Below the pieces are notes generated by a model. It saw only the letters and a program-made list of their open reading frames with translations, searched no databases and had not been told where the DNA came from. Of a stretch of 32,000 bases of DNA, positions 1,212 through 22,059 are shown piece after piece (positions within the stretch are counted from its first letter, which is position 1; the number at the start of each line of letters is the position of its first letter). Location: NCBI RefSeq assembly GCF_001412615.1, contig NZ_CP013011.1, positions 54,931 through 86,930 of the forward strand, read 5' to 3'. The position numbers and the translations under genes are program-made. Origin of the DNA: Pyrodictium delaneyi (GTDB taxonomy: Archaea; Thermoproteota; Thermoprotei_A; Sulfolobales; Pyrodictiaceae).

Positions 1212-1371
1212 TGGTCCCGCCGCGGGGATTCGAACCCCGGACCGCCCGGTATCTGCCTCCCAGGCCCCCGATGCCGACGCGCCCTCATCCAGCCCCCGTC
1301 GGGGGTGTCGGGCGCGTGGGGGGCCTGAGCCCCACCTACAGCCGGGCGCTCTGCCGCTGAGCTACGGCGGG
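1212..1371 (-). tRNA. tRNA-Tyr(GUA) with 85-nt intron, CCA encoded
   Basis: Hand-folded cloverleaf on the minus strand. Acceptor CCCGCCG/CGGCGGG (C1:G72, the archaeal Tyr identity pair); D arm GCTC-AGCGGCA-GAGC; anticodon stem CCCGG/CCGGG with loop CU-GUA-GA; T arm CGGGG-TTCGAAT-CCCCG; discriminator A plus CCA. Exons are 1336..1371 and 1212..1250. Confidence 0.85.
1251..1335 (-). other. tRNA-Tyr intron (after position 37), GC-rich rod with K-turn-like internal loop
   Basis: The intron reads GTGGGGCTCAGGCCCCCCACGCGCCCGACACCCCCGACGGGGGCTGGATGAGGGCGCGTCGGCATCGGGGGCCTGGGAGGCAGAT. Helices by eye: CAGGCCCCC/GGGGGCCTG, ACGCGCCC/GGGCGCGT and CCCCC/GGGGG. The central BHB helix would be CUGU/GCAG. Confidence 0.75.
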
Positions 1372-6280: not shown

Positions 6281-6405
6281 TGGTGGGCCCGCCGGGATTT
6301 GAACCCGGGACCACGGGGTCCCGAGTCGGGCACATCCCCGCCCTCATACGGTTTTCGGGCGGGGATATGTGTACCCCGCATCCTACCAAGCTAGACGACG
6401 GGCCC
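6281..6405 (-). tRNA. tRNA-Pro(CGG) with 48-nt non-canonical intron, CCA encoded
   Basis: Acceptor GGGCCCG/CGGGCCC; D arm GTCT-AGCTTGGTA-GGAT; anticodon stem CGGGG/CCCCG; loop CU-CGG-GA; T arm CCGGG-TTCAAAT-CCCGG; discriminator A plus CCA. The intron sits between the 5' strand of the anticodon stem and the loop. Confidence 0.8.
6326..6373 (-). other. tRNA-Pro intron at position 31/32 (or 32/33)
   Basis: The intron reads TACACATATCCCCGCCCGAAAACCGTATGAGGGCGGGGATGTGCCCGA. A relaxed BHB is visible: a 4-bp helix CGGG(27-30)/CCCG, 3-nt bulges G-TA and A-CT, then helix CACAT/ATGTG. A shift of one nt does not change the anticodon. Confidence 0.7.
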
Positions 6406-6565
6406 ACCCAGCGCCTCCTAGCCCCATCTCGGCTCTTGAAACTTTGTGTGCAGTATTATTTGCGTTTCTGGGGTTGGCTATAATATCCAGAAATGTTCTC
6501 GAAGCAAGAGTAGTCGTAGTGGCTAGCTACCGTCTCTTGATAGACCTTTTGTTCAGTGAATTTTT

Positions 6566-6961
6566 ATGAGAGTAAGGAGGTTATCTCGAATAGGAGTAAG
6601 TGATATGCCGGCGAATGCAACGGATATAGGGTCTGTACTTGGCTTAGTTGAACTAATTCAGACAAATCCTCAACTGGCTGTGGCTATAATACTGCAACTT
6701 CTCCTAGGATTTGCTGCCGGCTACTATATGGCTAAGGTAGCGAAATACGTGCTAGCACTGGTTGGTGTATTTGTTCTAGGTTCACTTATAGGTGTCTGGG
6801 GCGCCTCAGGGAGCGTTCAGGATGCGGTAGCGAGGCTACAGAACTTAGCCGAATTTAAGGATACGGCAATAAGCATAATGAAACTATTCAGCTTCTTAAT
6901 GGTGGGCCCAACAGCTGTGGGCTTCATTGTGGGAATAATTGTGGGTCTAACGCGTAAATAA
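6566..6961 (+). CDS. small integral membrane protein (3-4 TM)
   Basis: Gly/Ala-rich hydrophobic helices (LLLGFAAGYYMAKVAKYVLALVGVFVLGSLIGVWG; FLMVGPTAVGFIVGIIVGL). The more likely start is ATG 6605 (MPANAT...). Confidence 0.6.
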   Translation: MRVRRLSRIGVSDMPANATDIGSVLGLVELIQTNPQLAVAIILQLLLGFAAGYYMAKVAKYVLALVGVFVLGSLIGVWGASGSVQDAVARLQNLAEFKDTAISIMKLFSFLMVGPTAVGFIVGIIVGLTRK

Positions 6962-7283
6962 ATAGTGTTAGATCCCTCTATACGTGGTTTTCTTCCAAAT
7001 GAATGTTTTTGTCGAGCGGAGTCATGATTGTCGAGTCTTAAGTGTCCTGGAAGCAACTTAATCATTCCGATTAACTGTACGTGGCTTCCTATCACTAACA
7101 GTATAAAGAACGATATAACTGTGTGTATGGCTGAAGATCAAGCGTAGTCTGATATGTGAAATATTCTAGAGTTGAAGCATCTATGACCCTAGGAACTCAA
7201 TGTCAACTGAAGGCTTAGCGAAGAAGATAGAATCTTAGGGCAGGTATCTTAGAGTTGAGCCGGGCAAGAAACAAGGTTAGTGG

Positions 7284-7550: not shown

Positions 7551-7744
7551 ACTCCAGCCCCGAGCCGCTTCGGAAGGCTAGGCTCCTCTTAAAGGGGCTT
7601 CTCCCCGGCCTCCTCTAGAGAGGACCTGAGTACTAACTATTCATACGACATTATTGCTTTTGAGCTGATACAAACTTGGTGAGAGAATGAATTAATGAAT
7701 GTAATGTTGTTGTGGGTGATACAGGGGTAGGAGAAGGCCCGCGG

Positions 7745-7820
7745 TGGAGCCGCCGCCGGGATTCGAACCCGGGACCTCCGCCTTACCAGGGCGGCGCTCT
7801 GCCGGCTGAGCTACGGCGGC
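7745..7820 (-). tRNA. tRNA-Thr(GGU), intron-less, CCA encoded; integration target
   Basis: GCCGCCG-TA-GCTC-AGCCGGCA-GAGC-G-CCGCC-CTGGTAA-GGCGG-AGGTC-CCGGG-TTCGAAT-CCCGG-CGGCGGC-T-CCA. This is a perfect 76-nt cloverleaf. Confidence 0.9.
7776..7820. repeat. attL core (45 bp, equals nt 1-45 of tRNA-Thr)
   Basis: CTCCGCCTTACCAGGGCGGCGCTCTGCCGGCTGAGCTACGGCGGC, identical base for base to 22015-22059. The flanking bases differ (c/g on the left, g/a on the right). Confidence 0.95.
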
Positions 7821-8039
7821 GCTCCGGGGCGCCAGTGATACTATTACCTCGACTAAGTCTCTTGCGGTCAGAACTGAAAGCAGCTTGTCGCAGAGCGAGG
7901 CGCTGACGTTCCTCTTCCCGTTCGCTATCATGTTCGCGTAGGCGTTGCTTATCCCCAGCTCCTTCGGCTTAACCCCCCGAGTCTTCCACGCATAGAGAAA
8001 CAATGCCCTAGAGAGCTCGGGGCCCAGGATATCACACAT
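7776..8039 (-). CDS. integrase N-terminal fragment Int(N), HTH-like
   Basis: ATG at 8039, then 73 codons plus the 15 att-core codons (AAVAQPAERRPGKAE). In the integrated state the frame runs on through the tRNA to a stop at 7692 (track ORF 7692..8039). KELGISNAYANMIANGKRNVS looks like a helix-turn-helix. Confidence 0.7.
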
Positions 8040-8152: not shown

Positions 8153-8707
8153 GTGCGGCCCGAGCCCGTGTATGCTGCTGTGCTGCTCCTGGGCCTGGCT
8201 CTGGGCTTTGCTGCTGGCCAGTTCACGGCACAGCCCAAGGAGATAGTGCGCGAGACCGTGCTAACGACCACCGTCACCGAGACCGTTACCGAGACGGTTA
8301 CAGTCACGCCGCCCAAACCGAGGATAGAGTGCAGGCCGCTACGGGTGCTCTACAGCAACACCAGCTTAACGCTTGGTGTCTACCTTGTAGAGGAGAAGAG
8401 CAATGTGAGCGGAATAAGCCTACCAACGATTAAGAAGAAGAGAGATGTTATCAGGCTGAGCTTTGAAGGTGGCGGCGAGGGCCAGAGGCTACACATCCAC
8501 ATAGACGCCTACCCCTCGCAGCTAAGGTGGCTGAGCATAGAGCTCTACAACCCAGCCGACCTGCTCGCCTACGTGGCTATGCCCAAGAGCAAGGACATAG
8601 TATTCAGCATACCCTACCCCGACAACTACACCCTAGTCATAGAGCCACAGAGCACAGTAAAGCTCTACAACGTCACAGTGTGGATAGAAGAGTGTCAGCA
8701 ACAATAG
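8153..8707 (+). CDS. membrane-anchored/secreted glycoprotein with Thr/Val-rich stalk
   Basis: GTG start. The N-terminal hydrophobic segment VYAAVLLLGLALGFAAGQFTAQ is followed by TTTVTETVTETVTVTPP. Four N-x-S/T sequons are present (NTS, NVS, NYT, NVT). Confidence 0.65.
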   Translation: MRPEPVYAAVLLLGLALGFAAGQFTAQPKEIVRETVLTTTVTETVTETVTVTPPKPRIECRPLRVLYSNTSLTLGVYLVEEKSNVSGISLPTIKKKRDVIRLSFEGGGEGQRLHIHIDAYPSQLRWLSIELYNPADLLAYVAMPKSKDIVFSIPYPDNYTLVIEPQSTVKLYNVTVWIEECQQQ

Positions 8708-8799
8708 CGATGTATGCCCACCCCCAGCCCAGCTTTTTACATCAACCCATCCCCCTCATTCCCCCATGCCATATACCCGCACTTTTTCGGAGACAAGCC

Positions 8800-8970
8800 A
8801 TGAGCTGTGAGCGGGAAACCGTACTGAAGCTATTAGTGAAGCTCCGTCGAGAGATAAGAGCACTTGACATAGATGAACAAGCTAAAGCGAAGGTTCTCGA
8901 AAAGATCAGAGCCTATGAGCTTGAGCTTGAGGAGCTGCTGGCCGAGGAGCCCGTGTTCTCTAGGAGCTGA
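8800..8970 (+). CDS. small coiled-coil protein (56 aa)
   Basis: The ATG at 8800 lies within track ORF 8527..8970, whose upstream part is a Pro/His-rich shadow. The protein reads MSCERETVLKLLVKLRREIRALDIDEQAKAKVLEKIRAYELELEELL. Its 3' end overlaps the convergent gene by 58 nt. Confidence 0.4.
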   Translation: MSCERETVLKLLVKLRREIRALDIDEQAKAKVLEKIRAYELELEELLAEEPVFSRS

Positions 8971-9993: not shown

Positions 9994-10218
9994 ATGGGGA
10001 TGGTGCGGTTCACCTACGAGAGCCTCATCGACTACGTGTTCACGAAGATGAATAAGGCGATGGAGCTGCTGGACGAGGCTATGCAGGCGCTCTGGTGTCG
10101 CGGCAAGAGCGTAGACGAGTGCCTCAAGGGCATCGACAAGGCGTACAGCCTCATCGAGGACGCCAAGCTCGAGCTCAGCGAGGCAATATCAGAGATACTG
10201 GTCGTAATGGTGGGATGA
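9994..10218 (+). CDS. small helical hypothetical protein (74 aa)
   Basis: Track ORF with an ATG start, packed between two RHH genes. I recognise no motif. Confidence 0.5.
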   Translation: MGMVRFTYESLIDYVFTKMNKAMELLDEAMQALWCRGKSVDECLKGIDKAYSLIEDAKLELSEAISEILVVMVG

Positions 10219-10392
10219 ATGCGGGTCGTGACGTTCAAGGTGGATGAGGACTTCCTCGAAAAGCTAGACAGCTTCGCCCGCTTGAAGGGCGTGACCAGGA
10301 GCGAGGTCATCAGGAAGGCGTTGGAGCTGTACCTGAGGCTAGAGGATTGGAAGGTGCGCCCCGAGCCGAAGATAGTGAGGCTGCTGAGCTAG
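10219..10392 (+). CDS. second ribbon-helix-helix protein (57 aa, below ORF-track cutoff)
   Basis: Translated by hand: MRVVTFKVDEDFLEKLDSFARLKGVTRSEVIRKALELYLRLEDWKVRPEPKIVRLLS. The ATG directly abuts the upstream TGA (tgaatg). Confidence 0.7.
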   Translation: MRVVTFKVDEDFLEKLDSFARLKGVTRSEVIRKALELYLRLEDWKVRPEPKIVRLLS

Positions 10393-10404
10393 GGTGGCAC
10401 AGCA

Positions 10405-10911
10405 GTGCACCATATCTGCCTCTTCATAGTCGAGGCAGACTCTAGGGAAGAGGCTGAGGAGCTGGCGCTGTGTGCCTGGACGGGGGACACGGCCTACTGC
10501 GCTCCGAGGTGGTGGCCGCCGCCCGTCAGGGTGCTCTGCGGCGTCAAGTGGGACTATGCCACTACAGTAGGCAAGCTCAAGCTGTACGAGCGCCAGCTCA
10601 TAGAGGGCGGCGTCCCGCCGAGCTGCGCCCGCCGCATCATGGAGCGGCTGCCCAGGTGCCCCCACGAGTGGGACAGGGACGACGTCACCGTGGCCTGCCT
10701 GGACTTCCCTGCGAGGGTGTCAGACCTGGGCATAGACGCGGCCTACGCGATAGCAGCCGCGTTCAACGGCATGGGCGACATCTGCCTCAACATCCTCTAC
10801 AGGGAAGACACGGCAATCATCTACAGCAGCGGCCTGTGGAAGCTCCGCAAACTGCTAAACACCAGGAGCCACGACAAGCTATGGCTAGTCATAGTAGACG
10901 CCCACGAGTAG
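10405..10911 (+). CDS. hypothetical protein (168 aa)
   Basis: GTG start 13 nt after the RHH stop. I preferred it over the overlapping Arg/Pro-rich frame 10470..10919 and the antisense ORF 10339..10665 because of its balanced amino-acid composition. Confidence 0.55.
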   Translation: MHHICLFIVEADSREEAEELALCAWTGDTAYCAPRWWPPPVRVLCGVKWDYATTVGKLKLYERQLIEGGVPPSCARRIMERLPRCPHEWDRDDVTVACLDFPARVSDLGIDAAYAIAAAFNGMGDICLNILYREDTAIIYSSGLWKLRKLLNTRSHDKLWLVIVDAHE

Positions 10912-13098: not shown

Positions 13099-14010
13099 CT
13101 ATATGTAGCCCCACTCGCGGGCGATGTCCTCGAGCTCCAGCTCTTCCACCGCTTCTTTATCGTCGCTCTCGGCTATCTCCTCTAGCTCCTCTGCCGCCTT
13201 CTCCGCGAGCTCCTCTAGCTCCTTCTGTATCTTCTTGGTGCCCGCCTCTACGTATTTGTCGCGCATCCTCTTGTAGTCCAGGTATATCTCGTCCGGCAGG
13301 ACTGCCATGAACCTGTACTCCCAGAGCGGCTCGGGCATCTTCCGGCGGTAGAAGAGCCACTCGAAGTCCTCGCTGTCGACTATGTAGCCCCTCGTCTTGC
13401 TTATCTTGACGAAGCACTTCTCGTGTGCCTCTGCCAGCTCCCTGTACGTCTTGCCCCGGTTGGCTTCTATCAGCCTGCGGCACTCGGGGATGTCCCGGCG
13501 GGGTTTCACGTTCTCGACGCTGACGAGATCCACGAGGCTCAGCGACTCCCTTATGCCCTTGGCGAGCTTCCCGTAGCTGGTCGCCGTGAATATCATCGTG
13601 GAGACGTGGGTACGTATCACCTCTAGGTGCTCGACCACGGCCATCACGAACTTGGACTTGTAGCGGCCGCGGAACAGCCAGGCGCCAGCGTCGTCCCATA
13701 TCGCGAGGGGTATCCTCTTGTGGTGGTCGACCAGCTCCTTGAAGACCCGGACGAACTCGGTCGGGCTGTAGAAGATGTACTTCTTCGCCGTGTCCCAGTC
13801 CCTGTAGACGCCCAGCAGGAGCTTGATAGCCAGCACGGACTTGCCTATCCCGCGCTTGAAGATGGCGTTGGGGTACGCGAATATCCCCCAGAGCAGCCCG
13901 TAGTCGTTCACGTAGCTCTCCCATATAACCTCTAGGTGCGGCATCTTCGCCGTATGCCTGTTTATGAACTCCTGCAGTGTTAGCTGTTTCTTGGCCTTCG
14001 CCAGGCTCAT
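13099..14010 (-). CDS. P-loop NTPase with acidic coiled-coil tail
   Basis: Walker A-like FKRGIGKS (aa 51-58, KGGxGK[ST]-like), Walker B PLAIWDDAG (aa 101-109), and a possible motif C MIFTATS. The C-terminus is rich in E/K. The overlapping frame 13157..13924 is an Arg-rich shadow. Confidence 0.75.
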   Translation of the reverse strand: MSLAKAKKQLTLQEFINRHTAKMPHLEVIWESYVNDYGLLWGIFAYPNAIFKRGIGKSVLAIKLLLGVYRDWDTAKKYIFYSPTEFVRVFKELVDHHKRIPLAIWDDAGAWLFRGRYKSKFVMAVVEHLEVIRTHVSTMIFTATSYGKLAKGIRESLSLVDLVSVENVKPRRDIPECRRLIEANRGKTYRELAEAHEKCFVKISKTRGYIVDSEDFEWLFYRRKMPEPLWEYRFMAVLPDEIYLDYKRMRDKYVEAGTKKIQKELEELAEKAAEELEEIAESDDKEAVEELELEDIAREWGYI

Positions 14011-15271: not shown

Positions 15272-15976
15272 CTAGACGGGCTTGATTATGTCTACTATGA
15301 GCTTCACGATTTCGGCCACGGTCTTGAACAGCTTCTCGAACATCCGGTAGATACGCTCGAAGAAATCGAGCCACATGGTTATGAAGCCGAGCAGCGGGAA
15401 CAGCGACCGCTCCCTCGCGGCGCGGTTAGCGCTGTCCACGAACGTTGCTAGTATCATCGTCAGCACTATCCAGGGTATCCACGGTATGATGTTCACGCCC
15501 CAGGCCTTTATGGTTGCAAACGCCCACACAACTATCTCGACGAACGACGTTAGTGCTGCTATCAGGGCGGCGCCTATGTTGAAGATGAGCCAGCCTAGGT
15601 TGAATATCAACTGTAGGATGTAGCTGCCGAACACGTCCAGGAACTTGACCACGGCGCCGATTATCGGCACGGCTTCTATCTTGTCCTTTATCCAATTCCA
15701 GAGGGATTTGGCCCCCTCTTGCACCTTGCAGCCTATGTAGCCGAATACGTCCCAGCTCAGCCAGCTGTCTGGCGGCTGGCAGCCAGTAGTGTTCGTGAAG
15801 TTGAAGCTCTGCACGAACTCGCGGAACGGTGTTGTATTATCGCTGTATATCGGGTTCTGGGCACCGGTAACATTGTAGAGTATCTCTATCGGGTTGGGCG
15901 GAGTAGTCATGTTCCAAGTAGTGGTCTGCCCCACTAGCAGCAAAGAAACAATGAGCAGGGGCAGCAGCCGGCGCAC
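15272..15976 (-). CDS. polytopic membrane glycoprotein with signal peptide
   Basis: MRRLLPLLIVSLLLVG-QTTT, five sequons in the first 65 aa (NMT, NVT, NTT, NFT, NTT), then at least 4 hydrophobic helices. Confidence 0.7.
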   Translation of the reverse strand: MRRLLPLLIVSLLLVGQTTTWNMTTPPNPIEILYNVTGAQNPIYSDNTTPFREFVQSFNFTNTTGCQPPDSWLSWDVFGYIGCKVQEGAKSLWNWIKDKIEAVPIIGAVVKFLDVFGSYILQLIFNLGWLIFNIGAALIAALTSFVEIVVWAFATIKAWGVNIIPWIPWIVLTMILATFVDSANRAARERSLFPLLGFITMWLDFFERIYRMFEKLFKTVAEIVKLIVDIIKPV

Positions 15977-15986
15977 GGTGCACCAC

Positions 15987-16268
15987 CTAGGCGGGCTTCT
16001 TCTCGACTAGGTATATCTCGACGGGTATCGGGCTGTACGCCTTCACCCAGTTCTTGTAGAGCTGGAACGCCTCGTCCCTGGCGATTCCCTCTAGTTCTAC
16101 TTCGGCCCTCTTCGCGTGGTCGCCGTAGACTTCCTTCGAGGCCGAGATGAACTGGAGTGTGCGGTGTGCTGCGAAGAGCCAGATTTTGAGTCGGCCGCGG
16201 ATTGCTATCGTTTTCCTACGCAGCGTTTTGCCGTCACCGTTGTATATCTTGACGATTATCTTGGGCAT
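15987..16268 (-). CDS. small basic soluble protein (93 aa)
   Basis: Track ORF 15987..16529 trimmed to ATG 16268 (MPKIIVKIYNGDGKTLRRK...). The upstream 87 codons are a His/Arg/Gly/Pro-rich shadow that overlaps the next gene. Confidence 0.6.
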   Translation of the reverse strand: MPKIIVKIYNGDGKTLRRKTIAIRGRLKIWLFAAHRTLQFISASKEVYGDHAKRAEVELEGIARDEAFQLYKNWVKAYSPIPVEIYLVEKKPA

Positions 16269-16285
16269 GCCCGTCACCCCGAGCT

Positions 16286-16522
16286 CTAGATTATCGCCTT
16301 CCCGAGGCGGTAGAGCAGCCACCCCGCTATCACCCCGAGAACCACCATCCAGACCGTGTTGGCGTCTATGCTCAGCGTGTAGTGGTGCTCCGGAGTCAAG
16401 GTTACCGTCGTGGTTACGGTTACGGTGGTCATGTTCGTGGTGTTGGTGTCGGTCTGGGCGAGGGACAGGAGAGCCACCACCGGGGCTATCCGGGGGATAC
16501 GTAGGCGCCACAGCTGCAACAC
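16286..16522 (-). CDS. small secreted/TM-anchored protein (78 aa), distant member of the AQT family
   Basis: An in-frame GTG at 16522 gives MLQLWRLRIPRIAPVVALLSLA-QTDTNTTNMTTVTVTTTVTLTP...VWMVVLGVIAGWLLYRL. The track ORF extends to 16609, but that extra part lies in the promoter region. Confidence 0.6.
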   Translation of the reverse strand: MLQLWRLRIPRIAPVVALLSLAQTDTNTTNMTTVTVTTTVTLTPEHHYTLSIDANTVWMVVLGVIAGWLLYRLGKAII

Positions 16523-16572
16523 CCAGCACCGATTGTAACTAGGAGCCCCGGCTCTGACTAAACTATTGTGGC

Positions 16573-16600
16573 GTGATGCACCTACATCACAGTGATGTAG
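16573..16600. promoter_or_regulatory. three GTGATG(C/T)A half-sites forming two overlapping palindromes in a divergent promoter
   Basis: GTGATGCA-CC-TACATCAC-A-GTGATGTAG. CTACATCAC-A-GTGATGTAG (16582-16600) is a perfect 9+1+9 palindrome. It lies in the 151-bp gap between the minus operon (start 16522) and the plus operon (start 16674). Confidence 0.5.
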
Positions 16601-16673
16601 CAACAACACTTAGCAGCCCATATCTAATTCCTGCTGCAACAACTGTTACACGACAGAGCGTGAGGTGTGAGAG

Positions 16674-16919
16674 GTGCGCATCCTATCCCGGCTCAAGGAG
16701 AAGATAGACGAGAAGAAGATAGCCAGGAAGATAGCCGAGCACCCCGAGGCAGTGGCGGCTCTAACCCTCGTGGCTCAGACAACTACAAACGACACCGCAA
16801 CCACGACAACAACTGTAGACCTAAGCCCGATGGTCAGCATAATCAGCAGCGTCATCCCGCTATTCGTGCTAGTAGCAGTCATAAAGATACTCTTCAAGAG
16901 CTTCAAGGACGTAGCATAG
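16674..16919 (+). CDS. small signal-peptide/TM protein, paralog 1 (81 aa)
   Basis: GTG start preceded by GAGGTG. Charged N-terminal helix ILSRLKEKIDEKK, then AVAALTLVA-QTTTNDTATTTTT, then C-terminal TM VIPLFVLVAVIKILFKSFKDVA. Confidence 0.7.
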   Translation: MRILSRLKEKIDEKKIARKIAEHPEAVAALTLVAQTTTNDTATTTTTVDLSPMVSIISSVIPLFVLVAVIKILFKSFKDVA

Positions 16920-16934
16920 CGGGGCTGAGCAGTA

Positions 16935-17141
16935 ATGGCCAGCATCAACCGAATCAAGGAGAGAGTAAAGAGCCTGGCCAGCAGGCTGGGCCCGCCTGCC
17001 GCCGGCGCCGCCGTCCTAGTCGCGCAGACCGACAGCATGACAACCACAATATCTCTGGTAAACAGTGTCATCCCGGTGCTAGTGCTGGTGATGGTTCTGA
17101 AGTTACTGTTCTCCAGCTTCAAGGAGATAAGCAAGGACTAG
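16935..17141 (+). CDS. small signal-peptide/TM protein, paralog 2 (68 aa)
   Basis: MASINRIKERVKSLASR...AAVLVA-QTDSMTTT...VIPVLVLVMVLKLLFSSFKEISKD. It is collinear with paralog 1. Confidence 0.7.
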   Translation: MASINRIKERVKSLASRLGPPAAGAAVLVAQTDSMTTTISLVNSVIPVLVLVMVLKLLFSSFKEISKD

Positions 17142-17143
17142 GG

Positions 17144-17362
17144 GTGGGACACGTGTTCAAGCAGCTCAAGGAGAGACTGAGGGCGGGTTTTCGCAGGGCG
17201 GCCCCAGCCGCCGCAGCGGCCCTAGCACTGGCGCAGACGAGCACTTCAACATCTGGCTACGACGCAGTCGGCACGGTAGTCACTATGCTCATAGCCGTGG
17301 CGCTGCCAGCGCTGATACTCGTCAGCATCGTAAAGATGATTATGAACCATATACGCGCCTAG
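17144..17362 (+). CDS. small signal-peptide/TM protein, paralog 3 (72 aa)
   Basis: The start is GTG 17144 or GTG 17153. (MGH)VFKQLKERLRAGFRR...AAALALA-QTSTSTS...LPALILVSIVKMIMNHIRA. It forms the C-terminal end of track ORF 16667..17362, the rest of which is a shadow. Confidence 0.65.
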   Translation: MGHVFKQLKERLRAGFRRAAPAAAAALALAQTSTSTSGYDAVGTVVTMLIAVALPALILVSIVKMIMNHIRA

Positions 17363-17544
17363 CGCCACTCGTAGCAGCGATAGCGTTCACGGCGCAGAGC
17401 GCAGTAGAGACAGTCATAGACGTAAACCAGCAGGTCGCGGCGCTCATAGGGGCGCTCACGGTCTTCCTGCCGGTCGCCATACCTGCCATCATACTGCTGA
17501 CTCTGCTGAAGATACTCTTCAGCGCCATGAAGCCAACGAGGTGA
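17359..17544 (+). pseudogene. fourth paralog with no start codon in its own frame
   Basis: Frame 1 reads LAPLVAAIAFTA-QSAVETVIDVNQQVAALIGALTVFLPVAIPAIILLTLLKILFSAMKPTR*. That frame is open from 17131 but contains no ATG, GTG or TTG before 17527. Confidence 0.45.
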
Positions 17545-17549
17545 CCCGC

Positions 17550-17657
17550 ATGGGGTTTTTCGAGCCCCTTCTCCTCGGCGCCCTGGTCTACATGGTTATC
17601 CTGTTCTCGATGGTGATGCGGGTTGGCGGTGAGGATGAGGAGTCTGGCGGTGGCTAG
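17550..17657 (+). CDS. possible 35-aa single-TM peptide
   Basis: Translated by hand: MGFFEPLLLGALVYMVILFSMVMRVGGEDEESGGG. It overlaps the start of the glycoprotein gene by 23 nt. It is short, so the call is weak. Confidence 0.3.
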   Translation: MGFFEPLLLGALVYMVILFSMVMRVGGEDEESGGG

Positions 17658-20091
17658 CCTGATTGCCCTCGCTGTGCTACTGCCCCTAGCGAGCTCGCAG
17701 ACCACGATGCTCCAGAACGTCTACTACCTGGACGTAGTCCAGGGACATTGGTACGCAGTATACACCGGCGGCACTCCATACAGAGTCTTCTACGTGGACG
17801 GCAGCGGGCAGACAGTCTATGTGACGTCGTACTGGTGGGACGCGAACCAGAGCTACATCATATTCCAGGCACCCATCACCGGTAAGGTGTATCTGCGCGA
17901 GGAGCCGAGCCTCACACTATCAACACTCAGCACCACGGGATGGTGGAACTCCATCTCTGCGAGCGTGACAATCACGACTAATAGCACGTTTCCGAACGGA
18001 ACATACACAATGACGTTTAATCCGGCAAGCATAACGTATGATGGGAAGCAGCTAAAGATTGGATACGCGGCGAGCATCACGAAGGGATGGTATGGCCGGC
18101 TCGATGTCAACACTAAGTATTTCTTCGACTTCCAGTCATCAATAACGATAGACGATAGCAGCCTGAGCGTGTATGCGCGCTACGTGACAAGCTACTACTG
18201 CTATCCGTCACCGACGTACTGTTGGGAGCAGCGGCCTGTCTACAGCTCGCCAATCAATGGCGTGGCCGTGAACAGACCCGACCCGACGCAGTGTAACGTA
18301 GTTGCAAAATATTCGTATGTCCATGGACTACTGACTGTCACTGCAACAATCACGAACTATGGTGGAAGTTGTGAAACAGGTCAGAACGAGTACATATTGA
18401 CACTATATACAACTAAGACAGTTGTTGTGAACGACTCGTTTACAGCGGACAATGGAAACACAGTTCATATTGTTGACAGTCTCACTTACGCGGACATAGT
18501 TGCAACCAGTAGTAGCGCGACGTACTATCTCCAGAGCAGCCAGTGGAGCATAACGTTCCCTAACAGCACAGACATTGATAAGCCGCTCGTGCTTCTGCTA
18601 CCAAGCAACATAAGCATGAGCAACCCGGCGGCCTACATCAAGAGTCCGCTAACGGCGTGGGCTGGCGTCGTGGCTAGGAGCGCTGGCAACTACACGCTGC
18701 TGGTCTTCAGCCCACCGGCCATGTACAACACTAGCAGCGTCAGCCTAGACCTGGTGGCAAACTATCCCTACCGCTACGCGATACCACCAATCAACGTGAG
18801 ATATGCAACCAGATTGGACATAGGCAGCATCCTGCCGGTATCGGGGAGCTTCAGCGTTGTGAACGGAGTAGCTGTGATAGACGGCAACATAAGCCTCGGG
18901 CAGCTCATAGGCTCAACGCTGCTGCTCCGCGGCGACCTAAGCAACGCCACCATCACAGGCGCAGAGGCCGGCAACATCACCATAGACGGCACCACGTGGC
19001 TAGCGCTCTACGTCTACGACACTAACGCCATGATAAGCGGGCATGCGGAGATAGCCGAGCTCATAGTCCTCGAGAACACCAGGACTATGATGGACTACAC
19101 TGCCAGCATGACGGCGGGCTGGGACATTAGACCGTATGAAGTAGTCTCGGTAGAGGCTATCAGCTCGGCGAGCGTCTCCGGGAGCTGGGCTTATAGGATA
19201 CCGGTCTACATCACGCTGTCGTATCTCCCGCAGAGCCTCACGGATACTGGCTACTTGTTCAGGCTGGAGCTGCCCATCGGCGACTGGATTAGAGCGGGGC
19301 TGCTATCACCTGCGCTCGAGGACTTGCTCATAGTGGACAGCTCGATGCAGCCGCTGCCATTCGCCATCATAAAGAACGACGGTGAGAAGGCCGTGGTATA
19401 CGTGCGCTACACCAGGCCGCTGCTCAGCCAGTCCATCGTGATATACATCCTGCTGAAGAACGAGCAGCTCTGGGGCACCGGGAACAGCTTCGCCAGCCTC
19501 GTAGCCACGTTCGACCGTATCAATCCCGCCGAGGGAGTGGACGACCTGGGGTGGAGCTACGGCTACAGCTACATGGTCTACAACGCCTGGCTGTTCATAG
19601 GCAACGCTACCATTGCAGCCGGGCCTACCACATTCGACTTCGTGGCCTGGGAGCCGTCCAGCGGGCTCATCTACGAGCAGCACGGCAGCCTGGTTACACA
19701 AAACATCTCAGTGACCCCCGCGAGCGGCGACGAGGTGCTGGTGCTCTTCAGCAACAATTATCAAGATGCTCTCGTGTATGTCGATGGCAAACCATGGTAT
19801 AGTATACCACTGGCAAGCTTCAACATGACATCGCCGGCGTACTACGTCAAGTGGAAGAGCGCCGGAGCCGTCTACGCTGGCAAGATGATACCATACTCGT
19901 ACGCAATCGGGCAGATTGTAGGCTCGCTGGAGCAGCCAGCGAAGGTGGAGATACAGCAGCCGGTGCCGCAGCAGCCGCAGCAGAGCGCGAGCATGTGGGA
20001 CTTGCTCGCCGCGATGGCACCGCTGTTCCTGCTAGCCATCATAGTGAGGCTGATGCAGAACCCGCCAGCGCCAGCCCCCTACCCCAGATAG
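17635..20091 (+). CDS. large virion-surface-type glycoprotein (818 aa): signal peptide, 14 sequons, C-terminal TM anchor
   Basis: Track ORF 17623..20091. ATG 17635 gives MRSLAVASLIALAVLLPLASS-QTT. I counted 14 N-x-S/T sequons by hand. The C-terminus is a QQPVPQQPQQ linker, then the TM segment MWDLLAAMAPLFLLAIIVRLM, then a Pro-rich tail. Confidence 0.85.
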   Translation: MRSLAVASLIALAVLLPLASSQTTMLQNVYYLDVVQGHWYAVYTGGTPYRVFYVDGSGQTVYVTSYWWDANQSYIIFQAPITGKVYLREEPSLTLSTLSTTGWWNSISASVTITTNSTFPNGTYTMTFNPASITYDGKQLKIGYAASITKGWYGRLDVNTKYFFDFQSSITIDDSSLSVYARYVTSYYCYPSPTYCWEQRPVYSSPINGVAVNRPDPTQCNVVAKYSYVHGLLTVTATITNYGGSCETGQNEYILTLYTTKTVVVNDSFTADNGNTVHIVDSLTYADIVATSSSATYYLQSSQWSITFPNSTDIDKPLVLLLPSNISMSNPAAYIKSPLTAWAGVVARSAGNYTLLVFSPPAMYNTSSVSLDLVANYPYRYAIPPINVRYATRLDIGSILPVSGSFSVVNGVAVIDGNISLGQLIGSTLLLRGDLSNATITGAEAGNITIDGTTWLALYVYDTNAMISGHAEIAELIVLENTRTMMDYTASMTAGWDIRPYEVVSVEAISSASVSGSWAYRIPVYITLSYLPQSLTDTGYLFRLELPIGDWIRAGLLSPALEDLLIVDSSMQPLPFAIIKNDGEKAVVYVRYTRPLLSQSIVIYILLKNEQLWGTGNSFASLVATFDRINPAEGVDDLGWSYGYSYMVYNAWLFIGNATIAAGPTTFDFVAWEPSSGLIYEQHGSLVTQNISVTPASGDEVLVLFSNNYQDALVYVDGKPWYSIPLASFNMTSPAYYVKWKSAGAVYAGKMIPYSYAIGQIVGSLEQPAKVEIQQPVPQQPQQSASMWDLLAAMAPLFLLAIIVRLMQNPPAPAPYPR

Positions 20092-20430: not shown

Positions 20431-21102
20431 GTGCTGGAGAGCCTGGTGGCCGGCACCCTCGCTTACCTCTTTTTGCGTAGGGACGTTCCCTCTACGCTCA
20501 TTCCGTATCTTGCTTCCTTCGCAGCATTCCTGGATCAAGTCACTACAGTAGCAGCTATCAGTCTAGGCGCCCACGAGACTAATCCGTTCGTGCGCCTGTT
20601 CCTCGCGAGCCCCACACTCTTCTTCGCACTCTCGGCAGCCAAGATTCTGGTAGCGTGGCACATAGCCAGGCGGAGCCCAAGACTCGGGCTCTGGCTAGCT
20701 CTAGTCTTCCTAGCAGCCGCAGCGATAAACGCCCACAACGCCTACGCGCTCTACAACAATACCTCAACCATAGAGCTTGGCGGCCACACGCTCCAGGTCT
20801 ACATAGCTGACACAGAAAGGGAGAGGGAGTGCGGCTACTACTGCTACGACCACCCGGCGATAGCCTTCATCTGGCCAGGGGGGACACCGCCGGAAGTAAC
20901 CTTCACCATGGAAGGCCTGGACTACCCGCTGCTCCTAGTCCACGTCAGGGACTGCACAGTCATAGACGTGCTGGAGATGCAGCCCGGCGAGAAGTATAGA
21001 ATAGATAATGTAGGGCCACAAGACTGGTTCATCGAGGTAAAGAACGCGAGCCTAGAGATAGAGCCTGGCGAAAATGTTTGGGGGCTAGTCTGCGAGGGCT
21101 AG
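20431..21102 (+). CDS. fusion of a 4-TM domain (HETNP motif) with a DUF192-like domain
   Basis: The N-terminal half has hydrophobic helices and AHETNPF. The C-terminal LQVYIADTERERECGY...AIAFIWPG...TFTMEGLDYPLLLVHV...VIDVLEMQPG follows the DUF192 pattern (vAdt..eR..G ... mlF.f ... fwM.n...PLd..f), recalled from memory. Confidence 0.6.
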   Translation: MLESLVAGTLAYLFLRRDVPSTLIPYLASFAAFLDQVTTVAAISLGAHETNPFVRLFLASPTLFFALSAAKILVAWHIARRSPRLGLWLALVFLAAAAINAHNAYALYNNTSTIELGGHTLQVYIADTERERECGYYCYDHPAIAFIWPGGTPPEVTFTMEGLDYPLLLVHVRDCTVIDVLEMQPGEKYRIDNVGPQDWFIEVKNASLEIEPGENVWGLVCEG

Positions 21103-21981
21103 GACTACGGCCCGGCGCGGCGGCTTCCTCTGCAACTCCCGAAACTTTTCGGGCCTCTCTAGCCCCTCTTCCAGCATCTTAAGGAGCTCGGGATAGCTCG
21201 CGTCTGCAAGCTGCCTGAGATTCTCGTAGGCCAGGTCGCCCACTTTGAGGCTCCCTAGCCTAGAGTGGTAGAACTCGCACACGTCACGGCCAAGTACACG
21301 GCGGCATACCTGGCGGTGCAGCTTTCTCAGCTTGGACGCCTCGAAGCCGAAGTCCCTGGTGAGCCGCCTCGTAAAGGTCTTGTAGCCTATGACCGTGCCC
21401 GCGTGCTCCTCTATAGCCTCTAAGAGTCTGGCCGGGAAGTAGATGTAGTCGCAGCGCTTCTTGCCACGCTTCCAGAAGAGCCCATATCTCGCCACGCCGT
21501 CGGGGAGAATCTCTAGTCTAGAGGGATCGTACTCGGCTATCATCCGGAGCACCTCGTCTATCCTGGCGCCGCTATAGTATAGTATGTAGAGTGATAGCCG
21601 CCATTCGGGCCTAACATGCTCTGCCACGTCCCTCAGGGCCGAGACTAGCTCTGCCCAGTCTATCTCCACGCGCTCCGACACCTTGCTCTCCGTCTTGCGC
21701 TTCAGCAGTGAGAGATAACGCTCCTTGGCGTCCTTGCTCAGTCTCCCAGTCTCGAAGAGAAACTGCACCAGCTTCCTGGCGGCCTTGTAGGCCTTGTCGT
21801 TGCCGAGGGCCTCTAGGGCCTTCTCCTCGTCCAGGTAGTCCAGCTTCTCCAGCGCCGAGACGTAGTCGTTCGCGGTGCGCTCCTCTATACGCTCCTTCTC
21901 TATGAGCCACCGCCTAAAGGACTGGAGCAGGCCCGAGTGCAGCGATATAACAGGCAGGCCCGATGACCCCGGCTCGACCAT
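21085..21981 (-). CDS. tyrosine recombinase, C-terminal part Int(C) of a split SSV-type integrase
   Basis: SAM-like N-domain (FRRWLIEKERIEERTANDYVSALEKL). Catalytic motif order: YYSGARIDEVLRM (Arg), FWKRGKKRCDYIYF (Lys), KLRK, FYHSR and LAY (Tyr). The frame is open upstream through the att core to 22083. Confidence 0.85.
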   Translation of the reverse strand: MVEPGSSGLPVISLHSGLLQSFRRWLIEKERIEERTANDYVSALEKLDYLDEEKALEALGNDKAYKAARKLVQFLFETGRLSKDAKERYLSLLKRKTESKVSERVEIDWAELVSALRDVAEHVRPEWRLSLYILYYSGARIDEVLRMIAEYDPSRLEILPDGVARYGLFWKRGKKRCDYIYFPARLLEAIEEHAGTVIGYKTFTRRLTRDFGFEASKLRKLHRQVCRRVLGRDVCEFYHSRLGSLKVGDLAYENLRQLADASYPELLKMLEEGLERPEKFRELQRKPPRRAVVLALAD

Positions 21982-22014: not shown

Positions 22015-22059
22015 CTCCGCCTTACCAGGGCGGCGCTCTGCCGGCTGAGCTACGGCGGC
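22015..22059. repeat. attR core (orphan 5' half of tRNA-Thr)
   Basis: Identical to 7776-7820. On the minus strand it is followed by non-tRNA sequence (caagttcttgacc...). Confidence 0.95.

What the first reader, a model, noticed from the sequence alone, without database searches (positions are those of the whole stretch)
16674..17544. A tandem array of paralogous small signal-peptide/TM proteins that are candidate major virion proteins
**The copies.** Four consecutive units share one architecture.
- P1 (16674-16919): MRILSRLKEKIDEKK...AVAALTLVA|QTTTNDTATTTTT...VIPLFVLVAVIKILFKSFKDVA.
- P2 (16935-17141): MASINRIKERVKSLASR...AAVLVA|QTDSMTTT...VIPVLVLVMVLKLLFSSFKEISKD.
- P3 (17144-17362): VFKQLKERLRAGFRR...AAALALA|QTSTSTS...LPALILVSIVKMIMNHIRA.
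- P4 (17359-17544): LAPLVAAIAFTA|QSAVET...VAIPAIILLTLLKILFSAMKPTR.

**Shared features.** Each has a charged amphipathic N-terminal helix with an (L/I)KE(K/R) motif, a short Ala/Leu/Val h-region, a conserved A-Q-(T/S) junction, a Thr/Ser-rich stretch and one C-terminal TM ending in K-h-h-F-x-x-h-K. The gaps between copies are only 2-15 nt.

**Interpretation.** Tandem duplicated small hydrophobic proteins placed directly upstream of a large glycoprotein recall VP1/VP3 of fuselloviruses and VP3-VP4 of pleolipoviruses. However, these have one TM rather than the two hydrophobic helices of SSV1-type capsid proteins. The long charged pro-region ahead of the signal-like segment is unusual for Sec substrates.
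Basis: partly seen in the sequence, partly recalled or inferred. Interest (0 to 1): 0.7.

Follow-up and report, generated by a model that had tools for sequence, protein, structure and literature searches.

The report
Small envelope-protein genes of an archaeal provirus
Four tandem genes in a virus integrated in the Pyrodictium delaneyi chromosome encode leader-bearing precursors of tiny (about 45-residue) membrane glycopeptides that are probably envelope building blocks, and in related viruses the same units are fused into one protein with internal signal peptides.

Summary
P1 (16674-16919), P2 (16935-17141) and P3 (17153-17362) are real paralogous ORFs (Pyrde_0090 to 0092). P4 (17359-17544) is a fourth, unannotated paralogue with no ATG/GTG/TTG start.

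They lie in the morphogenesis module of a 14.2-kb provirus. It is bounded by 45-bp att repeats in tRNA-Thr and has a split SSV-type integrase and a DnaA-like gene. [quoted passage not shown]

A unit-level HMM hits APOV1 ORF12-85 at E = 4e-11. There is no significant link to fusellovirus VP1/VP3, Pfam, PHROGs, NCBIfam or PDB.

Across 87 units the junction is h-L-h-(A/G)|(Q/E)-T: position -1 is A or G in all, +1 is Q or E in 84. It follows a basic n-region and a 12-residue h-region. N-glycosylation sequons cluster just after it. The TM and tail are 91-95% conserved, whereas the leaders are 35-47% conserved.

Twenty-two of the 56 family proteins used for the unit count carry two or three units in one ORF, and in one contig a unit is fused to the large glycoprotein.

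Best reading (inferred, about 0.55): signal-peptidase-processed type I membrane glycopeptides of the virion envelope. Virion presence is untested.

The parts
16674..16919 (+). P1 precursor (Pyrde_0090, 81 aa). It has a basic amphipathic n-region, the h-region AVAALTLVA, the junction A|QT, a Thr-rich stub with the sequon NDT, a TM with the invariant Pro, and the tail KILFKSFKDVA.
   Evidence: ORF. Identity to Pyrde_0090. Orthologues. AF2 gives helices 3-22, 24-34 and 51-80 with 35-50 disordered.
16935..17141 (+). P2 precursor (Pyrde_0091, 68 aa), with the same architecture as P1.
   Evidence: (E = 4e-7 vs P1).
17153..17362 (+). P3 precursor (Pyrde_0092, 69 aa from GTG 17153; an alternative GTG lies at 17144). 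Its C-terminal 20 residues, from ALPALIL to KMIMNHIRA, are about 95% identical in all lineages.
17359..17544 (+). P4 unit, unannotated. It has the h-region LAPLVAAIAFTA, the junction A|QS, a stub, a TM and the tail KILFSAMKPTR. There is no canonical start codon. Its frame is -1 relative to P3 and it begins on the codon that overlaps the P3 stop.
   Evidence: Homologues start at TTG or GTG in L001, L002 and L011, and one is JGI-called (P0016). The leave-out HMM gives E = 7e-4.
17550..17657 (+). A fifth small membrane protein of a different family (35 aa, one TM, acidic C-terminus GGEDEESGGG). It overlaps the start of the glycoprotein gene. An equivalent ORF follows P4 in four of the five lineages (window, L001, L002, L011); it was not looked for in the fifth, L013/L014.
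   Evidence: Gene calls of 31-32 aa.
17635..20091 (+). Large glycoprotein, the probable spike. Its signal peptide is MRSLAVASLIALAVLLPLASS|QTT, it has many N-x-S/T sequons, and its C-terminal TM (APLFLLAIIVRL) resembles the P-family TM. The ORF listing starts the ORF at TTG 17623.
   Evidence: (45% identity to the L001 homologue).
16286..16609 (-). Divergently transcribed small secreted membrane protein with the same leader and junction (LLSLA|QTDTNTTNMTT) and a C-terminal TM. It is not a full family member.
   Evidence: The leave-out HMM hits only the leader, junction and stub (E = 2e-4).
15272..15976 (-). 234-aa membrane protein of the same module, with the signal peptide MRRLLPLLIVSLLLVG|QTTTWNMTT.
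7776..7820 (.). attL: a 45-bp perfect direct repeat inside tRNA-Thr(GGT) (7745-7820, minus strand). The N-terminal integrase fragment (ORF 7692-8039, minus strand) runs across it.
22015..22059 (.). attR: the second copy of the 45-bp repeat. The provirus between the two copies is about 14.2 kb.
   Evidence: GC step.
21085..21981 (-). C-terminal part of the SSV-type tyrosine integrase, which was split by integration.
   Evidence: PF16795 at 3e-19. phrog_5127..
13099..14010 (-). DnaA-like AAA+ protein typical of fuselloviruses and guttaviruses.
   Evidence: phrog_5484 at 1.3e-26. tblastn hits include APOV1 (listed first by coverage times identity; best E-values are to SSVs) and SSVs.

Best explanation
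P1-P4 are four anciently diverged paralogues of one family of viral small membrane proteins. They are encoded in the morphogenesis module of an APOV1-like (guttavirus/fusellovirus-related) provirus integrated in tRNA-Thr of Pyrodictium delaneyi.

Proposed mechanism, with status of each step:
- (i) Shown. Each unit consists of a basic n-region, a short h-region of about 12 residues, and an almost invariant junction h-L-h-(A/G)|(Q/E)-T. After the junction come a Thr/Ser/Asn-rich stub, one TM helix with an invariant Pro, and a short basic amphipathic tail.
- (ii) Inferred. The n- and h-regions act as a Sec signal peptide that is cut by signal peptidase after the A/G. The product is a mature type I membrane peptide of about 45 residues, with N-terminal Gln/Glu (able to cyclise to pyroglutamate), an N-glycosylated stub outside and the tail inside.
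- (iii) Inferred. The four mature peptides accumulate in the cell membrane together with the 822-aa glycoprotein. They are taken into the envelope of the budding virion as its abundant small structural proteins. The strongly conserved TM and tail would then mediate lateral packing and contact with the interior.
- (iv) Shown for the gene structures, inferred for processing. In relatives the same units are concatenated in one ORF, or fused to the glycoprotein. The leaders would then serve as internal signal peptides of a structural polyprotein. The long charged 'pro-regions' of P1-P3 correspond to the inter-unit linkers.
- (v) Inferred. P4 has dispensed with the leader, and in P. delaneyi it also lacks a canonical start. 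It is therefore made by termination-reinitiation at a near-cognate codon, or by an unknown recoding event, or it is inactive here.
For: Viral context. The att repeats are, the integrase and the DnaA-like gene. The provirus is collinear with L001, shares six genes with APOV1 and five with SSV1.

Family restricted to such elements. The gene order 'units, tiny TM ORF, glycoprotein of roughly 800-850 aa' recurs in L001, L002, L005, L011 and L015; in L006 the third gene is cut off at the contig end, and L017 lacks the tiny ORF and has a unit fused to its 907-aa glycoprotein. L005 is a provirus with an integrase in a 363-kb archaeal scaffold. The unit HMM hits APOV1 ORF12-85 at E = 4e-11.

Junction statistics over 87 units from 56 proteins:
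- Position -1 is A in 59 and G in 28, so 100% A or G.
- Position +1 is Q in 76 and E in 8.
- Position +2 is T in 81.
- The h-region has a median of 12 residues, and the same median for internal units.
- The preceding 10 residues carry a net positive charge in 90% of units.
- An N-x-S/T sequon lies within 14 residues after the junction in 34 of 87 units. Only 8 sequons occur in the other 5005 residues.

The same junction ends the classical N-terminal signal peptides of unrelated proteins of the module: the 822-aa, 234-aa and 107-aa proteins.

Leaders look disposable. P1 orthologues have leaders of 24-39 residues with 35% identity, against 91% identity in the last 22 residues. For P3 the figures are 47% and 95%. 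P4 homologues start only 5-9 residues (initiator Met included) before the Q.

Fusions. Thirteen two-unit and nine three-unit proteins were found among the 56 family proteins counted. The L005 ORF was verified as continuous. In L017 a unit is fused in front of the glycoprotein's signal-like segment.

Structure. AF2 gives a helix, a disordered stub and a confident TM helix.
Against: - No proteomic, N-terminal or virion data exist for any family member.
- The APOV1 major capsid protein (10.5 kDa) is not assigned to an ORF in any text I could read. It could be another small ORF, for example ORF8-107 at 10.7 kDa.
- Position -3 is Leu in 57% of units. That is not the classical small residue of the signal peptidase I -3/-1 rule.
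- No signal-peptide predictor was available.
- Cleavage at internal signal peptides by signal peptidase is, to my knowledge, not documented for prokaryotic viruses. A full-text search found no paper combining the terms.
- P4 has no start codon in this genome.
- The family is absent from the IMG/VR copy searched.
Confidence: 0.55

Rival explanations
1. The proteins are divergent members of the fusellovirus VP1/VP3 capsid-protein family. They would stay uncleaved at the A-Q-T site. The short h-region and the TM would form the helix-loop-helix hairpin of SSV-type capsid proteins, and only a VP1-like N-terminal pro-peptide would be removed.
For: The element shares its DnaA-like gene, nuclease, RHH protein, DUF5658 protein and integrase with SSV1. 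The genes are tandem paralogues like VP1-VP3. The features are collinear: a charged N-terminal extension (SSV1 VP1 begins RLLRSLARKIASLKEAK...), a hydrophobic segment, a Ser/Thr/Asn loop with sequons, and a TM that starts LVPLFYILV, compared with VIPLFVLVAV in P1.
Against: hhalign of 87 units against 10 VP1/VP3 sequences gives probability 0.1-6% and P = 0.006-0.29. The family HMM does not hit any SSV1 or APSV1 ORF. The first hydrophobic segment has a median of 12 residues, against about 20 in VP1/VP3. P4 homologues lack it almost entirely. The invariant small residue at -1 and Q/E at +1 are explained by cleavage, not by a hairpin.
Confidence: 0.12
2. The proteins are viral membrane proteins that act in the infected cell rather than in the virion. 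Possible roles are budding or egress scaffolds, viroporin-like channels, superinfection exclusion, or chaperones or escorts for the large glycoprotein.
For: Small single-TM proteins with basic tails fit many such roles. Fusion of a unit to the glycoprotein in L017, and the similar TM anchors of the glycoproteins, would also fit an escort function. There is no virion evidence.
Against: Four distinct paralogues are kept in fixed order in every lineage, directly upstream of the glycoprotein. The TM and tail are 91-95% conserved and the outer stub is variable and glycosylatable. Both features are what is expected of stoichiometric lattice or envelope components. APOV1 virions do contain a small major protein.
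Confidence: 0.2
3. P4 in this genome is an inactivated remnant, so only P1-P3 are expressed in P. delaneyi.
For: There is no ATG/GTG/TTG upstream of the junction. The window has GTA where L002 has the GTG start. No Shine-Dalgarno-like motif precedes it. It is not annotated in either assembly.
Against: The 61-codon frame is intact and conserved (leave-out HMM E = 7e-4). A second lineage (L013/L014) also lacks a canonical start yet keeps the ORF. In all five lineages the hydrophobic stretch runs in frame from the P3 stop to the junction, with lengths of 12, 11, 10, 10 and 9 codons. Indels there have therefore all been in frame.
Confidence: 0.35
4. The genes encode host cellular small proteins, such as pilin-like or other cell-surface proteins, or are chance ORFs unrelated to the mobile element.
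For: None beyond their small size and hydrophobicity.
Against: They lie inside the att-bounded provirus. All homologues with context are in the same viral module. The class III (prepilin) arrangement, a cut before the hydrophobic segment, is not present. There is no hit to any NCBIfam or Pfam cellular family.
Confidence: 0.03

Closest known systems
[quoted passage not shown]
   Same: It is a sequence homologue: unit HMM E = 4e-11 and 2.9e-4 with the narrow profile. The architecture is the same: a charged N-terminal helix, the h-region ALAGVALALAVLG, the junction G|QTTTT, a TM with Pro and an amphipathic tail. It heads a run of genes for secreted proteins (ORF11-222, ORF10-284, ORF9-678). The two genomes also share the DnaA-like gene, DUF5658, a wHTH protein, ORF7-57-like and ORF18-132-like genes, and the integrase.
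   Different: APOV1 has a single copy and the Pyrodictium lineage has four. The large proteins downstream are not detectably similar by BLASTP. Whether ORF12-85 is the 10.5-kDa major capsid protein is not stated in the accessible text.
Fusellovirus capsid proteins VP1/VP3 (SSV1 and relatives)
   Same: Both are tandem paralogous small hydrophobic proteins in a related class of integrating elements. Both have a glycosylatable Ser/Thr/Asn loop and a TM starting (V/I)PLF with a basic end. VP1 also carries a removable charged N-terminal extension (its removal is from my own knowledge of the SSV1 literature).
   Different: There is no significant profile similarity. VP1/VP3 have two hydrophobic helices of about 20 residues, whereas here there is a 12-residue h-region followed by an invariant cleavage-type junction.
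Inovirus major coat protein: the M13 procoat (with leader), and the Pf3 coat (without leader)
   Same: The working principle is the same. A mature peptide of about 45-50 residues has its N-terminus out, one TM and a basic C-terminal tail in. It is made with a cleavable leader (M13-like: P1-P3) or without one (Pf3-like: P4 homologues). It is stored in the cell membrane before assembly. This comparison is from established knowledge.
   Different: There is no homology: PF19199 is hit by 1 of 31 members, below threshold. The host, virion type (enveloped, dsDNA) and glycosylation all differ.
Pleolipovirus small membrane protein VP3 plus spike VP4
   Same: The gene for a small signal-peptide-bearing membrane protein lies directly upstream of the gene for a large spike with a C-terminal anchor. 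The virion is enveloped and acquires host membrane.
   Different: No PHROG family matched. The hosts are haloarchaea. Pleolipoviruses have one VP3 gene, not a four-unit array.
Structural polyproteins of enveloped eukaryotic viruses (alphavirus E3-E2-6K-E1, flavivirus prM-E), cut by host signal peptidase at internal signal peptides
   Same: The fused relatives have two or three units in one ORF, and in L017 a unit fused to the glycoprotein. They alternate TM, basic linker, short h-region and small residue | Q-T, as such polyproteins do.
   Different: This is an analogy only. Cleavage is not shown, and in the window the units are separate genes.

Membership tests
APOV1 ORF12-85-like small membrane proteins (unnamed family of guttavirus-like elements) | Significant sequence similarity to APOV1 ORF12-85 | tested here: met
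   The unit-level HMM built from 87 units hits ORF12-85 at E = 4.1e-11 among the six-frame segments of APOV1. The narrow 19-sequence profile gives 2.9e-4.
APOV1 ORF12-85-like small membrane proteins (unnamed family of guttavirus-like elements) | Same domain order: basic helix, short h-region, (A/G)|Q-T, Thr-rich stub, TM with Pro, amphipathic tail | tested here: met
   Sequences compared directly.
APOV1 ORF12-85-like small membrane proteins (unnamed family of guttavirus-like elements) | Located in an integrating element with an SSV-type integrase and a DnaA-like gene, upstream of genes for large secreted proteins | tested here: met
Fusellovirus VP1/VP3 capsid protein family | Detectable sequence or profile homology to SSV VP1/VP3 | tested here: not met
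   hhalign probability 0.1-6.4%. The family HMM gives no hit in SSV1 or APSV1.
Fusellovirus VP1/VP3 capsid protein family | Two hydrophobic helices of about 20 residues joined by a short loop | tested here: not met
   The first hydrophobic segment has a median of 12 residues, and only 4-8 residues follow the initiator Met before the Q in P4 homologues.
Fusellovirus VP1/VP3 capsid protein family | Presence in purified virions as the major protein | not testable with these tools
   Needs virion proteomics.
Sec-type (signal peptidase I) signal peptide | Positively charged n-region followed by a 7-15-residue h-region | tested here: met
   Net positive charge in 90% of units. The h-region median is 12 residues.
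Sec-type (signal peptidase I) signal peptide | Small uncharged residues at -1 and -3 | tested here: inconclusive
   Position -1 is A or G in 87 of 87 units. Position -3 is Leu in 50 of 87, and A, V, T or G in 26. Leu at -3 is tolerated in some systems but is not canonical. No predictor was available.
Sec-type (signal peptidase I) signal peptide | Actual cleavage giving a new N-terminus | not testable with these tools
   Only indirect support. Position +1 is Q or E in 84 of 87 units. The same junction occurs in classical N-terminal signal peptides of neighbouring proteins. P4 starts just before the junction.
Inovirus major coat protein Gp8 (PF19199) | Match to the Pfam model above the gathering score | tested here: not met
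   Only P3 matches, at 17 bits against a cut-off of 24.6. One of 31 members matches.
Archaeal type IV pilin / class III signal peptide | Cleavage motif [KR]-[GA] placed before the hydrophobic segment | tested here: not met
   The conserved A/G lies after the hydrophobic segment in all 87 units. No pilin family was hit.

The most novel reading that the evidence does not exclude
Guttavirus-like archaeal viruses build their envelope from a set of mature glycopeptides of about 45 residues. The peptides are released by host signal peptidase from multi-unit structural polyproteins that carry internal signal peptides, and in some lineages include the spike itself. That would make them the first prokaryotic-virus counterpart of alphavirus- or flavivirus-type envelope polyprotein processing. 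The Pyrodictium lineage would be a 'split-gene' version of this arrangement. Its fourth unit would be expressed without a canonical start codon, by reinitiation or recoding at the P3 stop.
Probability: 0.3. Interest if true: 0.78.

Novelty: new variant of a known kind. Interest (0 to 1): 0.58.

Why it matters
The structural proteins of Guttaviridae, and of most enveloped viruses of hyperthermophilic archaea, are essentially uncharacterised. To my knowledge no virus of Pyrodictium, which grows above 100 °C, has been isolated.

This family gives a concrete and testable candidate for the small major virion protein of APOV1-like viruses. It also provides a sequence signature, h-L-h-(A/G)|Q-T plus a Pro-containing TM, for finding such elements in metagenomes, where the copy of IMG/VR searched here does not hold them.

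If the fused forms are cleaved, they would be an example of signal-peptidase-processed viral polyproteins in archaea. The family also shows that public annotation misses P4, calling an antisense ORF instead, and that it trims the signal peptide from the glycoprotein.

Tried and rejected
- Known virus check. Megablast of the element and tblastn of the 822-aa protein against the phage/archaeal-virus collection found no match.
- Family libraries. Pfam, PHROGs and NCBIfam scans of P1-P4, of fused relatives and of 31 diverse members gave only scattered sub-threshold TM-type hits. PF19199 was hit by 1 of 31 members and phrog_2186 by 3 of 31.
- Solved structures. A PDB profile search found nothing below E = 0.25.
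- Fusellovirus link. hhalign against SSV VP1/VP3 was not significant.
- Collection scans for more loci:
  - The 822-aa protein in IMG/VR and in GTDB genomes gave no confirmed relative.
  - P1 and P0022 in IMG/VR gave none.
  - Alignment A3 was too variable for the search for related loci.
  - A degenerate DNA pattern for the invariant KMIMNHIR found only chance matches in metagenome, viral and genome collections.
- A third word-indexed protein search, with a diverse alignment, was saturated by low-complexity candidates and added nothing.
- Literature. No accessible text says which APOV1 ORF is the major capsid protein. The Mochizuki 2011 paper and the Krupovic 2018 review are not held. The ICTV profile gives only the mass. 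Database names are all 'hypothetical protein'. No paper links P. delaneyi to a provirus.
- -1 programmed frameshifting from P3 into P4 was considered and rejected as unsupported. There is no slippery heptamer before the stop (cat ata cgc gcc TAG), and the P-site tRNA could not re-pair.
- Fold search of the AF2 model was not run, because pTM is 0.36 and a single helix gives meaningless matches.
Full report
**What is in the window.** The window is a piece of the Pyrodictium delaneyi chromosome. P1 is identical to Pyrde_0090, P2 to Pyrde_0091 and P3 to Pyrde_0092. GC content rises from about 45-50% to 57-63% between roughly 10 and 22 kb.

A 45-bp perfect direct repeat occurs at 7776-7820 and again at 22015-22059. 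The first copy lies inside tRNA-Thr(GGT), which spans 7745-7820 on the minus strand. The two copies bound a 14.2-kb provirus. An SSV-type tyrosine integrase is split by the integration. Its C-terminal part is at 21085-21981 (PF16795, 3e-19). An N-terminal fragment at 7692-8039 runs across attL.

The element carries a DnaA-like AAA+ gene at 13099-14010 (phrog_5484, 1.3e-26). Its tblastn matches include APOV1 and Sulfolobus spindle-shaped viruses. The provirus is collinear gene for gene with a 14.6-kb hydrothermal-vent contig, L001. It shares six genes with APOV1 and five with SSV1. It is not a known virus at the nucleotide level.

**The observation.** P1 (16674-16919), P2 (16935-17141) and P3 (to 17362; GTG at 17144 or 17153) are ORFs as described. 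P4 (17359-17544) is an open frame with the family architecture but without any ATG, GTG or TTG upstream of its junction.

Paralogy is beyond chance:
- P1 vs P2 gives BLASTP E = 4e-7, and P1 vs P3 gives 0.002.
- An HMM trained only on non-window P1/P2/P3-type sequences scored the 451 six-frame segments of the window.
- It gave P1, P3 and P2 E-values of 1e-16 to 1e-27, and P4 7e-4 over nearly its full length.

All four paralogue types recur in the same order in five independent lineages. These are the window, L001, L002/L003, L011/12/15/16 and L013/14. The duplication is therefore old, and each copy has been kept.

**The family.** The word-indexed search found only 17 proteins. All came from Pyrodictium or from vent metagenomes.

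The exhaustive HMM search of 1.84 billion representatives found 43 with E < 1e-3. I cut 56 proteins into 87 units. The junction is remarkably fixed:
- Position -1 is A in 59 units and G in 28.
- Position +1 is Q in 76 and E in 8.
- Position +2 is T in 81.
- Position -3 is L in 50.

The segment from the last charged residue to position -1 has a median of 12 residues, and the same median when the unit is internal. The ten residues before it carry a net positive charge in 90% of units.

N-x-S/T sequons occur within 14 residues after the junction in 34 of 87 units. Only 8 sequons occur in the remaining 5005 residues. Mature single or last units are 37-53 residues long, with a median of 44.

Among P1 orthologues the leader varies from 24 to 39 residues and is 35% identical, while the last 22 residues are 91% identical. 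For P3 the figures are 47% and 95%. AlphaFold2 predicts helices at 3-22 and 24-34, a disordered stub at 35-50 and a confident helix at 51-80.

**Fusions.** Thirteen of the 56 family proteins counted carry two units and nine carry three units in one ORF. I verified the L005 case on the DNA. ORF 10001-10594 contains three units, a fourth unit follows as a separate gene, and an 854-aa glycoprotein gene comes next. All of this lies inside an integrase-bearing provirus in a 363-kb archaeal scaffold.

L006 has three plus two units. L017 has one unit, then a two-unit protein, and then a unit fused to the N-terminus of the 907-aa glycoprotein. That last unit sits ahead of a second signal-like segment.

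In these fused proteins the segment between one TM and the next h-region is a basic linker. The long charged 'pro-regions' of P1-P3 occupy the same position, separated from the preceding unit only by a stop codon, a spacer of 2-15 nt and a start codon.

**Relation to known proteins.** The unit HMM hits APOV1 ORF12-85 at E = 4e-11, and the C-terminal anchor of APOV1 ORF11-222 at 2.7e-6. ORF12-85 has the same architecture, with the sequence ...ALALAVLG|QTTTTDMTS.... It is annotated as a hypothetical protein.

APOV1 virions are enveloped and contain a 10.5-kDa major capsid protein plus two minor ones. The accessible text does not say which ORF encodes the major protein.

Fusellovirus VP1/VP3 look similar by eye: a charged extension, a hydrophobic segment, a glycosylatable loop and a TM starting LVPLF. 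However, hhalign gives at most 6% probability, and the family HMM does not hit SSV1 or APSV1. No family in Pfam, PHROGs or NCBIfam, and no PDB sequence, matches.

**Why I read the junction as a signal-peptidase site.** This reading is inference. It rests on five points:
1. The n-region, the 12-residue h-region and the invariant small -1 residue fit the anatomy of a Sec signal peptide. Twelve residues are too few for a stable membrane span.
2. The same ...(A/G/S)|Q-T junction ends the classical N-terminal signal peptides of unrelated proteins in this module. These are the 822-aa glycoprotein, the 234-aa protein and the 107-aa protein. In the window the motif occurs in real ORFs only there.
3. 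Position +1 is Q or E in 84 of 87 units. These are the two residues that can form N-terminal pyroglutamate, a constraint that makes sense only if +1 becomes an N-terminus.
4. Glycosylation sequons cluster just after the junction, which places that side outside the cell.
5. Leaders evolve fast and vary in length. P4 homologues begin only 5-9 residues (initiator Met included) before the Q: MLTAQ, MGLVAQ and MLAIFSTAQ. Everything before the Q is therefore dispensable for the mature function.

The weak point is Leu at -3 in 57% of units. No predictor or experiment was available.

**Why a virion role is the leading reading, and its limits.**
- Placement: the genes are the first of the plus-strand morphogenesis operon. 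They lie directly upstream of a spike-like glycoprotein whose own anchor resembles theirs.
- Copy pattern: four paralogues are kept in fixed order in every lineage.
- Conservation: the TM and tail are almost invariant, which suggests lateral packing, while the outer stub is variable. This is the pattern expected for abundant envelope subunits.
- Working principle: it resembles the inovirus procoat and Pf3 coat, and the pleolipovirus VP3/VP4 module.

No proteomic evidence exists, so a non-structural membrane role remains a serious rival, which I put at about 0.2.

**P4.** In all five lineages the P4 frame is -1 relative to P3, and a hydrophobic stretch runs in frame from the codon overlapping the P3 stop to the junction. 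Its length is 12, 11, 10, 10 or 9 codons, so indels there have all been in frame.

Three lineages have TTG or GTG starts 6-15 nt after the P3 stop. This is compatible with termination-reinitiation. The window has GTA where L002 has GTG, and it has only the near-cognate codons ATA at 17380 and ACG at 17389. L013/L014 also have no canonical start.

The second P. delaneyi assembly has the same sequence. There is no slippery site for -1 frameshifting. I leave this unresolved. The options are near-cognate reinitiation, an unknown recoding event, or an inactive copy (about 0.35).

The finding is a previously undescribed family of leader-bearing viral membrane glycopeptides. It has split and polyprotein-like forms, which makes it a new variant of a known kind.

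Noticed in passing
window 7776-7820 and 22015-22059: A 45-bp perfect direct repeat (att) defines a 14.2-kb provirus integrated in tRNA-Thr(GGT). The SSV-type integrase is split into an N-terminal fragment (7692-8039, minus strand) and a C-terminal part (21085-21981, minus strand).
   Followed up: yes
window 17340-17705 (minus strand) versus 17359-17544 (plus strand): In assembly GCA_002194565.1 an antisense 121-aa ORF is annotated over the P4 region and P4 itself is not called. The glycoprotein is called as 794 aa, starting at an internal Met after the predicted signal peptide.
   Followed up: partly
window 17550-17657 (plus strand); L001 8211-8303; L002 3164-3268; L011 1404-1502: A conserved ORF of 30-35 aa with one TM and an acidic C-terminus (…GGEDEESGGG, …GESDDEED, …DGEGDKD). 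It lies between P4 and the glycoprotein gene and overlaps the start of the latter. It belongs to a different family and has no known function.
   Followed up: partly
window 17635-20091 compared with L001 8278-10737 and L002 3243-5660: The C-terminal half of the large glycoprotein is nearly identical between elements (for example YRIPVYITLSYLPQSLTDTGYLFRLELPIGDWIRAGLLSPALEDLLIVD). The N-terminal half is strongly diverged, with 45% identity overall. This pattern fits a variable receptor-binding head on a conserved stalk or anchor.
   Followed up: no
window 16573-16609 and the surrounding 16540-16673: The divergent intergenic region between the two morphogenesis operons holds an imperfect palindrome (GTGATGCACCTACATCAC / GTGATGTAGCAACAACAC). 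It also holds blocks conserved in L001 and L011 (CACTTAGCAGCCCATATCTAAT, TGCAACAACTGTTACACGAC). These are probably promoter or operator elements.
   Followed up: partly
window 16286-16609 (minus strand), overlapping 15987-16529 (minus strand): A 107-aa ORF with the same LA|QT leader junction, a Thr/Asn-rich stub with sequons and a C-terminal TM. It overlaps by about 240 nt, in another frame, a 180-aa ORF whose conserved part starts further downstream. Relatives-77-aa and 93-112-aa genes here.
   Followed up: partly
L017 4708-7431: A family unit (…VCSVA|ETNNDT… TM …) is fused in frame to the N-terminus of the 907-aa glycoprotein. It is followed by a second signal-like hydrophobic segment before the ectodomain.
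   Followed up: partly
L004 (APOV1) 6356-7024, minus strand: The C-terminal anchor of APOV1 ORF11-222 (…AVAAVMPLLVVVAVFGVVIKILDRM…) matches the TM and tail part of the unit HMM (E = 2.7e-6). The family's anchor module therefore also occurs attached to a larger ectodomain.
   Followed up: no
window 8527-8970 (plus strand) and L004 2566-2739: The C-terminal 55 residues of this ORF (MSCERETVLKLLVKLRREI…ELEELLAEEPVFSRS) resemble APOV1 ORF7-57. This is a small conserved coiled-coil protein of unknown function near the left end of the provirus.
   Followed up: no
window 1216-1305 (minus strand): ARAGORN reports tRNA-Pro(CGG) as 90 nt long, with the anticodon at position 36. It may contain an intron. 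It lies in the host flank and is unrelated to the finding.
   Followed up: no
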